Source of the DNA: Eledone cirrhosa
Lineage: Eukaryota
NCBI GenBank assembly: GCA_964016885.1
Contig: CAXHJY010000903.1
Span: 4,735 to 68,734, forward strand
Length of the DNA stretch: 64,000 nt
Reading direction: 5' to 3'
A program made the translations under genes and the position numbers. Under the pieces are notes generated by a model. That model made no database searches. It worked only from the letters and a program-made list of their open reading frames with translations, and was not told the origin of the DNA. The stretch's first letter is position 1. Every line of letters begins with the position of its first letter. Positions 57,660 to 63,991 of the stretch are shown piece by piece.

Positions 57660-57690
<31 letters not shown>

Positions 57691-57892
57691 TGATAGAGTA
57701 AGACACGCTTCGCATCGGCTCCGCTATTCCATCGGGATTTACCCTTACTATTGTAAGTACCGGATAAATTTTTTAGTGCAACACATTTGGAACACTAACC
57801 CCTGTTATTTAGGGAAACATTTTTGCATTTACCCCCTTTTTAGGGGGTAAAATAAATATCTATTTTTGCCGAAAAATTTCTTTCTTGGCAGC

Positions 57893-59353
57893 ATGGCGGA
57901 AAAGATGGCAGACATGTCTGCCATTAGCTCTGCCACGCCCCCCAAGTCTGAAGAACAAAAAATAATTACAACAAAATTAGACATTGAAACAAACAAACAA
58001 AATGAAAAAACAAATGTTAAGGAAAATGAGCAAACAGAAAACAAACAAACAGAAAATAATACAAATAACGACAGGGCAACTTTCGCCCAGAAAACAAAGC
58101 AATCCATTACATACACACCAATTGACCTAACTGCCGCCAGAGAAAAACTGGCCGAAGCAAAGAAACATATTGTTTTGGGTGAGAACGGAATGTTTTCCAT
58201 TAACTCTCCCCCAGAATTCAAGAAAGCCAGAGCAGAAAACACAGTTATATACAGAACTATACTAAACCAGTCAAGAAAGCCAGCACAGCCCAGCCAAATG
58301 GAAATAGAGTTAGTCCTAAAAGACTATATGAAGAATATTCTCTTCATACGAAAGGACCGACTCTATGGCAGCATTTCGGTCCTAACAAGAGACAAAGAAA
58401 CCGCGGTTCAGCTTTCCCTAAGCCCACTCTCGTCGACAACATATAGCTTCTATCCCTCCTACATGGGTAGAAGAACACAGAGAATAAAAGTAAAAACAAT
58501 GCTGCCCACAATGGACTTCTGGTGGGCTATTGCTGGCTTCATTGATATGGGCGAAGACACTATGCTGTCAATGGGGAAGGCAACTGGAGATGCGTTCCTG
58601 GGAATGGGCCTCGACATACTAGTCCAAATGAGGCCCGAAAGAATAGCACAAATCCCGGATCGCATCTGGCTGGATGACCTTACCCCAATAGACATAATTG
58701 TAGAGGGGAGAAGACCAGCATGCTATTTATGCATGGAAAGGGGACACGTTAAGGCTAACTGCCCGAAACGTATCCCCCAAAAAGGACTATTGCCCACACC
58801 CACCACAAACAGTACACCAGCACCACCCACCTCCAAAAATACACTAATACCACACACAGCAAACAAAATACAGACACCACCAACCACAAACACAACACAA
58901 ACATCACCACCACCAGCACCAAACACAAGCACGACACAAAAATCACCACCACCAACCACAACACAAACATCACCACCACCATTACCAACCACAAGCACGA
59001 CACAAACATTACCACCACCACCACCACAAAACCCATTCCAAACAAATAATAAAAAAAACAGTAACAAATCTACCCCTCCCGCAAAAAAAAAACAACCACA
59101 CAACACGTCCCTCCCACCTAGCGCTGAAGAGTTTCCCCCAACTTCTGAAGAAGAAGGAGGAGAAGCCTTCAGACAAGTTAAAAGAAAAAAAAGAAAACAC
59201 ACACCCAGCACACCACAAATAACCCACACACAAACACCAACTCCAATCAAAAACACCCCACCCTCAACAAACAAAAATAAATCTGCGCCTCCCCTCTCCG
59301 AAACATTGACAGCATCACAAAAAAAAGACGTTGCAATACACATATATAAATAA
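57893..59353 (+). CDS. LINE ORF1 (nucleic-acid-binding, CCHC zinc knuckle), N-terminal part
   Basis: First ATG at 57893; CYLCMERGHVKANC = CX2CX4HX4C, followed by a P/T-rich linker and basic KRKKRK, as in Tx1 ORF1. Confidence 0.85.
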   Translation: MAEKMADMSAISSATPPKSEEQKIITTKLDIETNKQNEKTNVKENEQTENKQTENNTNNDRATFAQKTKQSITYTPIDLTAAREKLAEAKKHIVLGENGMFSINSPPEFKKARAENTVIYRTILNQSRKPAQPSQMEIELVLKDYMKNILFIRKDRLYGSISVLTRDKETAVQLSLSPLSSTTYSFYPSYMGRRTQRIKVKTMLPTMDFWWAIAGFIDMGEDTMLSMGKATGDAFLGMGLDILVQMRPERIAQIPDRIWLDDLTPIDIIVEGRRPACYLCMERGHVKANCPKRIPQKGLLPTPTTNSTPAPPTSKNTLIPHTANKIQTPPTTNTTQTSPPPAPNTSTTQKSPPPTTTQTSPPPLPTTSTTQTLPPPPPQNPFQTNNKKNSNKSTPPAKKKQPHNTSLPPSAEEFPPTSEEEGGEAFRQVKRKKRKHTPSTPQITHTQTPTPIKNTPPSTNKNKSAPPLSETLTASQKKDVAIHIYK

Positions 59354-59729
59354 AGAAAACAAAAAACTGGTTAAATTAATAAACAATAACCCTATGGTGC
59401 AGACCGAAGGGCCAAACTTTATCTCAACAGAGAACTTCACCCATTTAAAAATGATAAAGGTCCCTCTGGACCTTTATCGTTCCTTAAAAGAACAATTTAG
59501 ACGGGACGTGAGCCCCCCCTGTTTAAAACCGTTGAATCGCGTCCTCTTGAAAGATTTCCCCATAACCGCCCCTCTCCCTGACACAACTCCAAATACCCCA
59601 ACCCCACCACACACGTGTACCCCCACACCACCACAAAACATCCCTCCACCCAACACACCTGATGCCATGGAAATTACGCAACCCGGAGAGGTAAGTGCTT
59701 TTCTTTCTTCACTTTCAACACCAAAATAG
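59327..59729 (+). CDS. Probable C-terminal part of ORF1 (+1 frame)
   Basis: Fills the gap to ORF2; removing one A from the A8 run (59319-59326) fuses it to ORF1 (QKKTLQYTYINKE...), giving about 611 aa. Confidence 0.65.
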
Positions 59730-59734
59730 ATCAA

Positions 59735-62700
59735 TTGAGAGTTGGCTGTTTGAACGCGCGTGGCCTGAGCTCAGCTTGGAAGCAAGCAAAGCTTCTAAGT
59801 GACCTCAGGTCACAAAGTATAGATGTGATGGTTGTTTGCGAGAGTCGGATCAGCAGCGTGAGACAGCTGGCGCCCGCCTTCGATGACTTTGAGATGCACG
59901 CATCTCTCTGTCAACCCGGAGGTGGGGGGGGAGTTGCCGTACTGCTGGATAAACGTCTGACTCTCGACGTACAGATTGTTCACTCGGACCCGGGGGGTCG
60001 ATTACTGGTGCTGGACGTCGGAGGTGGTGAAGGCGGGGCTTTCAGACTGGTCGGTCTTTATGCTCCTTTCGGGGCGGAGAGAGCCGACTTCTTCCAACGT
60101 CTGGAAACTTTTCTAGGAACGTCGCGTTCCCTGCTTTTAGTGGGTGACTGGAATGGAATCCTAGATGCGCGTTGGGACTATGCAGGGGCATGTCCCGATA
60201 GAGGGGGGTGTAGCAGCCTCAAGGGGTTACTCGATCGATTCGACCTGGTCGATAGATTTCGACTAGATTGTCCAACTGCGCCAACCTGGACCTGGGCAAA
60301 CCGCAGTGGACAATCTAGATCGTACCTAGATAGGTTTTTGGTTAGGAGTAAGGATAGGGACGTATTTAGTTGTCCAGAACTGATCATGGTTGGCTATTCA
60401 GATCACAAATTAGTGACCTGCGTGGTCAACCTTGATAGAACGCATAGACAGGGTCCCGGTTACTGGAAGATGAACTTGTCCTTACCGACAAAGAAAGATT
60501 ACAGAAACCGGATTAGTAGCTTAGTTAAGATGCGGTTGACGGGAGCGATCGTCAACAGTAGGTGGTGGATATCTCTAAAGAGAGAGATTAGAGTAAGTTC
60601 GATAGGTTACAGTAAGGAACTAGCGGCGAATAGAAATAGGAGGGAAAGGGAGTTAACAGATAAACTAGAAGAGGTGATTAGGAGCGGAGACGTAGCCAGA
60701 GTGTTAGCGACGAGAACGGCATTGAGCCAGTTCTTTGACGCGAAGCACGAAGGCTGCGTTGTCCGAAGTAAAATACGTGCTTTAGGAAACGAGGGGACCA
60801 AAGCTGTTAGCTGGGCCCGCGTGACAGAAGCCAAGAGTGGGATTAAATCCACCATTCGGTCTTTGCGAGACCAGGATGGACGGGTGATCCTTGAACCTGA
60901 GCGAATGTGCGAGACCTTTCAAAGGCACTTTGCTCGACTGTTCGGAGGTGGCGGGGGGCCGGACGGGGATGTGGACTTCGGTCCATACCTCGACGGTCTA
61001 CCGCGTCTTTCGAGCGGCGAAGCGGAGTGCTGCGAAGGGCCAATCACAGCCACTGAAATCGGGGAAGCGCTCAGCCAATGCAGCAGACGCAAATCCCCGG
61101 GTCTCGATGGTCTACCATACGAACTTTATTTAGCTATGCCGGTCTTGTTCTCCGAACTCCTCGAGGCTGTCTATTGCAACTGGCAACAGAACGGGAGAAT
61201 TCCCTGTTCTGTGACCAAGGGCGTGGTCACGCTAGTGAGGAAGGACGAGAGCAAGGGGGACGACTTAAGTAACTTTAGGCCCATAACTCTGCTGAATGCA
61301 GAGTTACAGATTTTGGCCAAGGTGTTGGCGAAGAGGTTGGCGCTTGTGGTGGGTGGTTTGGTGGGAGACGCGCAGACATGCGCTATCCCGTCCAGGTCCA
61401 TTCACGACAACCTCCACCTCATGCGATACATCATAGAGAGGGTTGGCTACGAACCCGGCTTTGGTGGGGCCCTGATCAACTTGGATCAATCTAAGGCGTT
61501 CGATAGGGTCGACCATGGTTACCTGGATGCGGTGCTAGCGGCGGCGGGCTTCGGACCCGTTTTCAGGGGCTGGATTTCTGCCATGCACAGTGGCAACATC
61601 TACTCTAGGATTAAAGTAAACGGCTACCTCTCGGAGCCGTTTCAAATCACCCGATCCATCAGACAGGGGTGCCCCCTCTCCTCCCTTCTGTACGTATTGA
61701 CTCTCGAGCCACTGCTGCGGAAGTTGGAGTTGCTGCGGGGCATACCCCTGGAACCGGGATTGCACAAAGCGGTCTCGGCCTATGCCGACGACGTAACAGT
61801 AATGGTGGCGGACGCCTCGGAAATCGGGGCGATCGCCACCCTACTGGAGGAATACGAAAGGCTGACGGGGGCTAAGCTGAACCAGGACAAGTCAGTCGGT
61901 TTGCAACTCGGAACGTGGAGGGGCAAACCGATGCCGTTAGACGGTGTCGTCGGGCGGTGGACGGAGGGCCCGGTGAAGCTGCTCGGGGTCTGGTTCGGAC
62001 CGGACCTCCAGGTGGAGAAGAATTGGGGCGAGGTGACGAGCAGGGTGTTTGCGCTGACCCAGAAGTGGGCCAAGTGCAAACTATCACTGAAAGGTCGGGC
62101 GGAGGTGACGAACGCTTACATAGCGTCCGTCATCTACTACCGCCTGACCGTCGTGCCTTGCCCCAAGGAAAAGCTCACCATCATGGAACGCATGCTCTTC
62201 CAGTTCCTCTGGAAGAAGCGGCCTCCCATGGTGAGGAGATCCATCTGCTGCCAGCACCCTTCGAAAGGAGGGCTGGGTATGCCGTGGCTGTTGATGCGTA
62301 GGCACGCATTGAGGCTACGGCATCTACAGGTATTCCTCAACGGTCAGCCGGTGTGGGCCCCGTTTGTGAGGCGAGCCTTCCCACAGCTCGTCTCGCTCAC
62401 CGAACTGCAATCCTGGGTGAAGCAAAGACCGAGAAAACTGGGCAACTGGCACACTGAGTGTGCCCAGGCGCTCACGGCTATCTGGCAAGCGGACCCGACT
62501 GTCAGTGGAGAATCCACCTCGACATTCTATAGAGGGTTGGTGGCTAGCAGGGGCGACGACACCCTTGGAGAGTCGCTAGGCATGGAGGAGGACGAACTGG
62601 CCAGCCTGTTCGGTAGAACTTTCGGCCCGGGACCCATGGACAACTTCCAGAGGTCCCTAGCCTGGCAGTGTTACCGGGGGGCTCTGCCCGTTCGAGAAAA

Positions 62701-63163
62701 GCTCTACAGACACGGGCGCCCGGGCAGGGATCCCGCGAAAAAGATCTGTCCCAGATGCGTGCGCGACGAGGAAACCGTTGCGCATGCACTGGTACACTGC
62801 CCGGGCGTTGCCGATCTGTGGGGCTACGTCGAACGACTGCTGTCGCGTGTGGCGCCGATTCGATTAACCGCCGAGTCTGTGGTGAACATCAAGCCGCCTC
62901 CTCCCTTCAGAAATGAAGCAGAGGCGGTCTTTCTGTGCGTAATAGCCATGATGAAAGAGGTTGTGTGGTGGACGCGCCTGAAAGGTCTGAGGTCGGGTGA
63001 CTTTCTCTCCGGCCATCACCTGGTTTACTTCTTCCGATACCACTTCGGAAGAAGAATCAGGATGGAGAGAGAAGTGCTTGGTCCCAGACAGTTTTATGAA
63101 AGGTGGGTGAAAGAAGCGAGAATGGCCCGTGTAAATGGGCCTTCTCTCTACATTGTTCTGTAG
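59735..63163 (+). CDS. LINE ORF2: AP endonuclease, reverse transcriptase, C-terminal zinc finger
   Basis: APE motifs LNARG, GLYAP, GDWN, SYLDRF, SDH; RT motifs KSPGLDG, FRPITLLN, LDQSKAFDRV, IRQGCPLS, YADD, KLLGV; CPRC...ETVAHALVHC. 1142 codons with no stop; begins at TTG. Confidence 0.97.
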   Translation: MRVGCLNARGLSSAWKQAKLLSDLRSQSIDVMVVCESRISSVRQLAPAFDDFEMHASLCQPGGGGGVAVLLDKRLTLDVQIVHSDPGGRLLVLDVGGGEGGAFRLVGLYAPFGAERADFFQRLETFLGTSRSLLLVGDWNGILDARWDYAGACPDRGGCSSLKGLLDRFDLVDRFRLDCPTAPTWTWANRSGQSRSYLDRFLVRSKDRDVFSCPELIMVGYSDHKLVTCVVNLDRTHRQGPGYWKMNLSLPTKKDYRNRISSLVKMRLTGAIVNSRWWISLKREIRVSSIGYSKELAANRNRRERELTDKLEEVIRSGDVARVLATRTALSQFFDAKHEGCVVRSKIRALGNEGTKAVSWARVTEAKSGIKSTIRSLRDQDGRVILEPERMCETFQRHFARLFGGGGGPDGDVDFGPYLDGLPRLSSGEAECCEGPITATEIGEALSQCSRRKSPGLDGLPYELYLAMPVLFSELLEAVYCNWQQNGRIPCSVTKGVVTLVRKDESKGDDLSNFRPITLLNAELQILAKVLAKRLALVVGGLVGDAQTCAIPSRSIHDNLHLMRYIIERVGYEPGFGGALINLDQSKAFDRVDHGYLDAVLAAAGFGPVFRGWISAMHSGNIYSRIKVNGYLSEPFQITRSIRQGCPLSSLLYVLTLEPLLRKLELLRGIPLEPGLHKAVSAYADDVTVMVADASEIGAIATLLEEYERLTGAKLNQDKSVGLQLGTWRGKPMPLDGVVGRWTEGPVKLLGVWFGPDLQVEKNWGEVTSRVFALTQKWAKCKLSLKGRAEVTNAYIASVIYYRLTVVPCPKEKLTIMERMLFQFLWKKRPPMVRRSICCQHPSKGGLGMPWLLMRRHALRLRHLQVFLNGQPVWAPFVRRAFPQLVSLTELQSWVKQRPRKLGNWHTECAQALTAIWQADPTVSGESTSTFYRGLVASRGDDTLGESLGMEEDELASLFGRTFGPGPMDNFQRSLAWQCYRGALPVREKLYRHGRPGRDPAKKICPRCVRDEETVAHALVHCPGVADLWGYVERLLSRVAPIRLTAESVVNIKPPPPFRNEAEAVFLCVIAMMKEVVWWTRLKGLRSGDFLSGHHLVYFFRYHFGRRIRMEREVLGPRQFYERWVKEARMARVNGPSLYIVL

Positions 63164-63394
63164 GTGAAGAAGTGAAGAGGAAAGGGGGAGCGCCTCCTCT
63201 CTGGGCTTCCCCCGCGAAAAGAGTTGCACACTTTTCGGGGGTATGTGCAATCCCCAACACGCCCCCTCCCTTTTGAGGACTTTTTATTGTTATATTATTA
63301 TTGTTATTCCTTTTTTCTTTACTCGATTTATGTAAACTCCCCCACTGTGTAAATGTCCCCTTCTTTTATGCCCTCGTGGCAAATAAATAGAAAT

Positions 63395-63428
<34 letters not shown>

Positions 63429-63461
63429 GTCTGTCTATCTATCATCACCTCACTCTTCGTG

Positions 63462-63503
<42 letters not shown>

Positions 63504-63504
63504 T

Positions 63505-63939
63505 ATAATTGTTTCTACGTTAGGCACAAGGCCAGTAATCACCCAGTGTATTACTGGTACTTTATTTTATCGACCCCGTAAGGATGAAAGGCAAAGTCAA
63601 CCTCGGCGGGATTTGAACTCAGATCATAAAGGGACATAACTGTGCTGCAAAGCATGGCGTCCACCCCTCTACCGATATATATAATTGTTTCTACTTTTGG
63701 CACAAGGCCAGCAATTAACCCAGTGTATTACTGGTACTTTATTTTATCGACCCCGAAAGGATGAAAGGCAAAGTTAACCTCGGCGGGATTTGAACTCAGA
63801 ATGGCAAGGGCCGTAACTCTATGCGTCAAAGCATGACGTCCGACCCTCTACTGATAATGATATATATATATATATAATATATATATATATAATTGTTTCT
63901 ACTTTAGGCACAAGGCCAGCAATTACCCAGTGCATTACT

Positions 63940-63943
<4 letters not shown>
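63505..63943 (-). mobile_element. Cluster of three SINE copies in a (TA)n array
   Basis: 63505-63676 and 63682-63854 near full-length; 63889-63943 is the 3' tail only. Confidence 0.9.

Positions 63944-63991
<48 letters not shown>

What the first reader, a model, noticed from the sequence alone, without database searches (positions are those of the whole stretch)
57661..63443. Near-intact Tx1-type LINE inserted in a (TC)n(TATC)n microsatellite: candidate new site-specific retrotransposon
Seen: uninterrupted, GC-rich ORF2 in an AT-rich window; TATCTATCT on both sides (57682-57690, 63396-63404); no poly(A) tail. Known: several Tx1-clade families are sequence-specific, e.g. Kibi for (TC)n and Koshi for (TTC)n. 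Inference: a recently active family targeting (TATC)n/(GATA)n or the TC-TATC boundary, of interest as a repeat-targeted integration system. A single insertion cannot establish specificity.
Basis: partly seen in the sequence, partly recalled or inferred. Interest (0 to 1): 0.75.

Follow-up and report, generated by a model that had tools for sequence, protein, structure and literature searches.

The report
Young LINE that targets GATA repeats
This is one of hundreds of nearly identical copies of a jumping gene that sit almost without exception inside GATA repeats, which it likely seeks out and cuts; repeat-seeking jumping genes are a known kind, and GATA appears to be a new target for them.

Summary
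Real, with corrections. The element (57,692-63,396) belongs to a young L1-group, Tx1-like LINE family. Its 3' end has 545 exact matches in the genome, and 310 of 314 exact 5' ends follow TATCTT. Of 80 sampled copies, 74 are full-length, all with a TATC run upstream; 79 end in TATC and none has poly(A). Among 5'-truncated copies of this and sister families, which cannot carry a repeat head, 34 of 42 abut TATC runs (background 6e-5 per base). Target duplications start in TATC. So (TATC)n is the target; the TC boundary is not (3 of 74). Full-length RNA likely carries a short repeat leader that anneals to the target, as proposed for Drosophila R1. ORF2 is under purifying selection but has ATA where sisters have ATG. 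This copy's ORF1 is frameshifted. No empty site or enzyme test was obtained, and Tx1 membership was not tested against reference sequences. It is a new member of a known kind (Kibi, Koshi); I found no paper on a GATA target. This scan already noted GATA-targeting in this lineage on other DNA (e1-9510316, e1-9514738).

The parts
57660..57681 (.). (TC)11 host flank; not part of the target
   Evidence: present in only 3 of 74 copies
57682..57690 (+). TATCTATCT at the 5' junction (target repeat, target duplication and/or RNA-carried leader; not separable in this copy)
   Evidence: 73 of 74 full-length copies have ATCTT before the first element base; 310 of 314 genome-wide have TATCTT
57684..57697 (+). 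6-bp inverted repeat across the 5' junction (TCTATC-TT-GATAGA): the element begins with a short inverted copy of its target
   Evidence: folds as a hairpin; function untested
57692..57892 (+). 5' UTR, with a splice-donor-like GTAAGT at 57,753 and an acceptor-like pyrimidine tract plus CAG just before the ORF1 ATG
   Evidence: no Rfam match; no spliced genomic copy
57893..59729 (+). ORF1, gag-like with a CCHC knuckle at about 58,718-58,768 and a Pro/Thr-rich C-terminal half; frameshifted near 59,320 in this copy
   Evidence: (zf-CCHC E 0.014, below cut-off); shared variants 34 synonymous: 27 non-synonymous in codons 1-300
59726..63163 (+). ORF2: APE endonuclease (LNARG, CESR, LYAP, GDWNG, YLDR, SDHK motifs, 59,750-60,409), reverse transcriptase (YADD at 61,781) and C-terminal zinc motif; begins with ATA overlapping the ORF1 stop TAG
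   Evidence: purifying selection
63164..63396 (+). 3' UTR ending AATAAA...GAAATT(T), no poly(A)
   Evidence: 545 exact matches of its last 26 bases; poly(A) after 0 of 80
63396..63443 (+). (TATC)8 plus degenerate units at the 3' junction (target, probably with some added units)
   Evidence: TATC follows in phase in 79 of 80 copies

Best explanation
This is a copy of a young, abundant, mostly full-length LINE family that lies in one orientation and phase inside (TATC)n/(GATA)n repeats, likely because its endonuclease nicks that repeat and its RNA, which likely carries a few repeat units at each end, pairs with the cut DNA. Shown: copy number, youth, domain anatomy, invariant junction phase, TATC runs at truncated 5' ends, target duplications of 11-21 bp that start at (T)ATC, and head-to-tail stacking in the repeats left by sister families. 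Inferred: the APE domain nicks the GATA strand (cut at T^ATC, plus or minus one base), and that 3' end primes reverse transcription in place of a poly(A) tail. The top strand is cut 10-20 bp downstream. A full-length RNA likely begins in the upstream repeat, so the cDNA ends in (GATA)n and anneals to the target's top strand, giving precise 5' joints and sometimes a duplication followed by extra repeat units. Two to four repeat units seem to suffice as a target. ORF2 is likely made by termination-reinitiation at a non-AUG codon overlapping the ORF1 stop.
For: 545 exact 3' ends; 310 of 314 exact 5' ends follow TATCTT. Of the first 100 listed 3' ends I fetched 80 (all 57 on contig 1, 23 of 43 on contig 2): 74 full-length, median identity to the window copy 99.3%, upstream perfect run median 24 and minimum 6 bases, against a background of 5.7e-5. 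Truncated copies: 34 of 42 well-resolved ones have a run of at least 8 bases at the 5' junction, and 16 of 22 that do not sit directly behind another lineage member. Duplications with non-repeat bases: L074 17-18 bp and L082 11-16 bp, both truncated, and L108 20-21 bp. 7 of 72 full-length copies show one against 1.2 expected from mismatched flank pairs, and 6 of the 7 have 18-35 extra bases before the element; the L020/L021/L042 tandem shows 20 + 12. 45 of 74 copies adjoin another lineage member. Sisters group with this family in a 14-row clade, support 99/97, and all 12 resolved full-length sister copies have a TATC run of at least 9 bases. ORF2 variants shared by 3 or more copies are 37 synonymous: 25 non-synonymous: 1 stop, against a neutral N/S of 2.4; singletons are 182: 385: 20. 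Contigs of a second organism also show the 5' end joined to the repeat (run X4).
Against: No empty (pre-insertion) site was recovered, so the amount of repeat present beforehand is inferred from about ten duplications. Only 2 of 5 truncated copies of the focal family have TATC at the 5' junction; the other three (L073, L081, L090) abut other lineage sequence directly. One truncated sister copy sits in (TA)n without TATC (L082 minus strand). Sister copies were found only because they neighbour focal copies, and the 48 truncated rows include tandem duplicates; 6 of 48 were dropped for identity under 88%. The mismatched-pair control does not cover an interruption repeated within one degenerate tract (L076, L077, L126). 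Only 1 of 21 non-tandem full-length copies with a short 3' run shows a clear non-repeat duplication, and truncated sisters show it in only 4 of 23, some of them artefacts, so the contrast between full-length and truncated copies is weak. Shared variants in the first 36 codons of ORF2 are 3 non-synonymous: 1 synonymous and do not show where translation starts.
Confidence: 0.82

Rival explanations
1. The endonuclease is loosely specific. The element carries (TATC)n as both head and tail on its RNA and creates the microsatellite at each landing site.
For: Extra repeat units beyond the duplication exist at the 5' side (6 of 7 informative copies) and at the 3' side (L091: 58 bases downstream against 19 in the matching upstream copy). 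Downstream runs range from 3 to 86 bases. In two cases a paralogous flank elsewhere has (TA)n where the occupied site has TATC (L106, L117).
Against: Truncated copies cannot carry a head, yet 34 of 42 have upstream runs. Duplications in L074, L082 and L108 begin in TATC and are preceded by further TATC. 45 of 74 copies adjoin another lineage member, joined through TATC. Many flanks are old, interrupted TATC tracts.
Confidence: 0.08
2. Specificity comes mainly from pairing of the RNA's (AUCU)n 3' end with GATA DNA at nicks made by a weakly specific endonuclease or by the host, not from sequence reading by the APE domain.
For: No poly(A) and a fixed phase at 79 of 80 3' junctions fit priming by base-pairing. 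Very short targets seem to be used (L020/L042, L133/L141).
Against: In related site-specific APE elements (Tx1L, TRAS1, SART1, R1Bm) the endonuclease itself is sequence-specific (PMC1919474, passages). All catalytic motifs are intact here. Not directly tested.
Confidence: 0.2
3. Insertion is random and copies survive only in microsatellites, or the copies spread by segmental or tandem duplication.
For: Some tandem pairs with identical spacers exist (L014/L015, L020/L021, L090).
Against: Flanks differ among copies. Copies that share rare variants have unrelated flanks. Orientation and phase are fixed, and the far more abundant (TA)n, (CA)n and (TC)n tracts of the window are not used.
Confidence: 0.02

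Closest known systems
Kibi (TC)n and Koshi (TTC)n of teleosts; crocodilian Tx1 families on (TTCC)n/(TTTC)n (PMC4494074, passages; PMC3812793, passages)
   Same: APE-type L1-group LINEs inserted specifically into a pyrimidine-rich microsatellite on the sense strand.
   Different: Target unit is TATC; host is an invertebrate (probably an octopod, from recalled SINE and repeat features and earlier scan notes, not tested); relationship to Kibi/Koshi was not tested because no reference sequences were available.
Melanogaster-type R1A elements of Drosophila (PMC2718515, passages)
   Same: Full-length transcripts are proposed to carry 6-27 nt of upstream target that anneal to the cut site, giving precise 5' joints; some copies show a duplication followed by 16-27 bp of extra target sequence.
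   Different: R1 clade, 28S rDNA target and a 9-bp target deletion; here an L1-group element, a simple repeat target and a much higher share of full-length copies than in its own sisters.
Human L1 and silkworm SART1, ORF2 translation (PMC2881922, passages)
   Same: ORF2 translation depends on ORF1 translation; SART1 uses overlapping stop-start codons.
   Different: Here the overlap is A-UAG with AUA in place of the AUG that sister families keep; that L1 ORF2 can start without AUG is recalled, not read here.
Waldo (ACAY)n, Mino (AC)n, Dong (TAA)n, Togen (TG)n (PMC3812793, PMC4640811; passages)
   Same: Microsatellite-specific non-LTR retrotransposons.
   Different: Other target units; as recalled, other clades (R1, R4, NeSL-related).

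Membership tests
L1 group of non-LTR retrotransposons | Two ORFs; ORF2 with N-terminal APE endonuclease, RT and C-terminal zinc motif, no RNase H or restriction-like nuclease | tested here: met
   Pfam; endonuclease matches L1 EN structures at E 6e-5 to 6e-3; motifs
L1 group of non-LTR retrotransposons | RT closer to L1 than to other non-LTR clades | tested here: inconclusive
   141 bits to L1 ORF2p against 80 or less to R2; other clades (RTE, CR1, I, Jockey) are not in that library
Tx1 clade | ORF1 with CCHC zinc knuckle rather than the mammalian Transposase_22 type (PMC5203782, passages) | tested here: met
   CYLCMERGHVKANC in ORF1; zf-CCHC E 0.014, below cut-off, and no Transposase_22 hit
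Tx1 clade | RT phylogeny groups it with Tx1L, Kibi, Koshi, Keno | not testable with these tools
   No named Tx1 reference sequence could be fetched; homologues carry no informative names; the tree has no named references
Microsatellite-specific Tx1 families | One repeat type in more than 20% of flanks (criterion of PMC4494074) | tested here: met
   74 of 74 full-length 5' junctions and 79 of 80 3' junctions; 34 of 42 truncated 5' junctions
Microsatellite-specific Tx1 families | Endonuclease cleaves the target specifically | not testable with these tools
   Needs an in vitro nicking assay
Kibi | (TC)n target | tested here: not met
   (TC)4+ directly before the TATC run in 3 of 74, and never as the junction itself
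Koshi | (TTC)n target | tested here: not met
   No (TTC)n junction among 80 sampled copies
TPRT-inserted element | Target site duplications and 5' truncations | tested here: met
   11-21 bp duplications; truncated copies

The most novel reading that the evidence does not exclude
This family has become a nearly truncation-proof LINE. A repeat leader on its RNA, capped by a short inverted copy of the target (TCTATC-TT-GATAGA), lets only complete cDNAs join the (TATC)n target. That would explain 74 full-length copies among 79, against 12 of 56 resolved copies in sisters with the same target, while its RT is made without any AUG. It would be a natural model for precise full-length insertion into an abundant neutral repeat.
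Probability: 0.25. Interest if true: 0.65.

Novelty: new member of a known kind. Interest (0 to 1): 0.4.

Why it matters
It adds (TATC)n/(GATA)n to the short list of microsatellite targets of APE-type LINEs, with an unusually large, young and mostly full-length set of copies and a radiation of sister families on the same target. How an APE domain reads a microsatellite is described as poorly understood (PMC3812793, passage), and these sisters give a ready comparative series. The high full-length share and the AUG-less ORF2 are the two features a specialist would not expect. The principle itself is known, and the scan had already noted the target.

Tried and rejected
Contigs of 4 runs (2 samples, 2 studies) laid on one 5' end and its flank covered only the element and the repeat; runs X1-X3 may be the assembly's own sample. 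Paralogue searches with two unique flanks found no match reaching the junction, nor did a search among my own loci. No RNA holder was listed. Splicing: no genomic copy with the predicted 5' UTR splice joint, none with a non-G after the ORF1-end donor, and the one GT-non-A hit is a point variant; these patterns cover the focal family only and say nothing about RNA. Ribozyme or other known RNA at the 5' end: no Rfam match near a gathering score. 5' transduction of an upstream sister from one donor (L092/L094 share a spacer): they share only one rare variant, so not supported. Stitching loci by overlap alone merged unrelated loci and was redone by coordinates. Kojima and Fujiwara 2004 is not held and the supplements of PMC4494074 could not be read; either, or Repbase, may list a (TATC)n family. 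Paper searches for a GATA/TATC target or cephalopod Tx1 specificity found none. A look into PMC9115989 failed; I saw only its search listing.

Full report
Observation. ORF2 is a single open frame of 1,166 codons with endonuclease, RT and zinc-binding matches and all APE and RT motifs. Among solved structures the RT is nearest human L1 ORF2p (141 bits, R2 80 or less). ORF1 has a CCHC knuckle but is frameshifted near 59,320 in this copy; 19 of 74 other full-length copies have ORF1 open, 21 ORF2, and 9 both.

The family. The last 26 bases have 545 exact matches in the 3.0-Gb genome and the first 27 have 314, of which 310 follow TATCTT. I fetched 80 of the first 100 listed 3' ends: all 57 on contig 1 and 23 of 43 on contig 2, leaving out 13 already seen as full-length or tandem and the last 7. 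74 are full-length, 5 are truncated or chimeric, and 1 is a sister with the same end. Median identity to the window copy is 99.3%, and 28 of 74 are at 99.5% or more. Flanks differ from copy to copy, so these are separate insertions.

Target. All 74 full-length copies have an in-phase TATC run upstream (median 24 bases, minimum 6, at least 12 in 65); downstream runs have median 23.5 and range 3-86. TATC follows the end in 79 of 80 copies and poly(A) in none. The background for a 13-base run is 5.7e-5 per position. Only 3 of 74 have a TC run directly before the repeat, so the TC boundary in the window is incidental. Because a full-length RNA could bring its own repeat head, I turned to truncated copies. 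Neighbouring DNA holds many sister families with 60-93% ORF2 identity that form one clade with this family. Of 48 truncated rows, 42 aligned at 88% or more to a library element; 34 of these have a run of at least 8 bases at the 5' junction, as do 16 of the 22 not directly behind another lineage member. The six misses in that subset are three nested or chimeric joints, one inverted (GATA)n, one inverted-piece boundary and one true exception in (TA)n. Sisters were ascertained beside focal copies and some rows are tandem duplicates, so these counts are not fully independent. In the focal family, L074 and L082 are clean truncations with duplications of 17-18 and 11-16 bp that start at (T)ATC and are preceded by 2-3 more units; L073, L081 and L090 abut other lineage sequence without TATC. 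45 of 74 copies adjoin another lineage member: each insertion leaves repeats that are targets for the next.

Mechanism. Inferred from junctions and from known site-specific APE elements, whose endonucleases carry the specificity (PMC1919474, passages): the GATA strand is nicked, its 3' end primes on the RNA, and the top strand is cut 10-20 bp downstream. In 7 of 72 non-tandem full-length copies the duplication includes non-repeat bases (1.2 expected from mismatched pairs), and in 6 of them 18-35 further bases, nearly all repeat, lie between duplication and element. In L091 these bases contain interruptions absent from the local flank, and the tandem at L020/L021/L042 shows 20 + 12. This matches the pattern and model described for melanogaster-type R1, where full-length transcripts carry upstream target that anneals to the cut site (PMC2718515, passages). 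The control is imperfect in degenerate tracts, so the leader is likely (about 0.6), not shown. One sister copy (L179) begins the same way. A causal link is speculation, and age and ascertainment differ between the two sets.

ORF2 start. 73 of 75 copies have ATA at 59,726, overlapping the ORF1 stop TAG. Seven of the eight sisters whose junction printed have ATG there. Variants shared by three or more copies are 37 synonymous to 25 non-synonymous and 1 stop, against a neutral N/S of 2.4, while singletons are neutral. So ORF2 has been translated in the source lineages without that AUG. Coupled translation of ORF2 is described for L1 and SART1 (PMC2881922, passages); reinitiation at AUA is my inference.

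Independent data. Contigs of four runs cover the 5' end at depths of thousands and run into varied flanks after 10-20 repeat bases; one contig of a second organism also joins the 5' end to the repeat. Three of the runs are one sample that may be the assembly's source. No empty site was found.

Comparison and novelty. Microsatellite-specific LINEs are known: Kibi (TC)n, Koshi (TTC)n, crocodilian Tx1 on (TTCC)n/(TTTC)n (PMC4494074, passages), Waldo, Mino, Dong (PMC3812793, passages) and Togen (PMC4640811, passages). Recently active L1-Tx1 families are counted in Octopus vulgaris without target analysis in the passages I saw (PMC13282606). Searches found no GATA/TATC target, but Kojima and Fujiwara 2004, the supplements of PMC4494074 and Repbase could not be read. 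Tx1 membership rests on architecture (PMC5203782, passages), not on a tree with references. The host is probably an octopod (recalled features and earlier notes; not tested). The scan has already noted GATA-targeting in this lineage, in this genome and another; those notes are not independent evidence.

Verdict. Observation confirmed and interpretation supported. New member of a known kind; interest 0.4.

Noticed in passing
window 59,691-59,696 and 63,137-63,163: A splice-donor-like GTAAGT near the end of ORF1 and an acceptor-like pyrimidine tract ending at the ORF2 stop (TAG|G) bracket ORF2; the acceptor-like tract is in all 16 library elements. No spliced genomic copy was found. Earlier scan notes raise the same point.
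   Followed up: partly
window 57,753 and 57,878-57,892; sister 5' UTRs: A GTRAG donor-like motif lies in the first 140 bases of 14 of 16 library elements whose UTRs otherwise differ, and an acceptor-like tract precedes the ORF1 ATG here; no spliced copy found. AT-rich UTRs could give such motifs by chance; no control was run.
   Followed up: partly
L155 about 6,020; L165 about 6,780; L179 about 2,052: Short inverted (GATA)n stretches at 5' junctions of three sister insertions, like the fixed GATAGA start of the focal family; may be a by-product of 5' joining.
   Followed up: no
L108, L110, L113, L115, L130, L132: Internal deletions of about 40-1,240 bases in 6 of 74 otherwise full-length copies; breakpoints not examined.
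   Followed up: no
L144 about 1,640-4,350: A sister element followed by lineage sequence in the opposite orientation, possibly an inversion or a nested opposite-strand insertion.
   Followed up: no
window 63,500-63,960 and about ten other places: Copies of an abundant SINE-like repeat (core TCGACCCC); its resemblance to octopod SINEs is recalled, not tested.
   Followed up: no
window 21,037-23,367; 27,797-29,413; 32,301-33,016; 55,640-57,150: Minisatellite arrays with 90-, 44-, 45- and 143-bp units and a long (CAA/CAG)-type repeat whose open frames are low-complexity artefacts.
   Followed up: no
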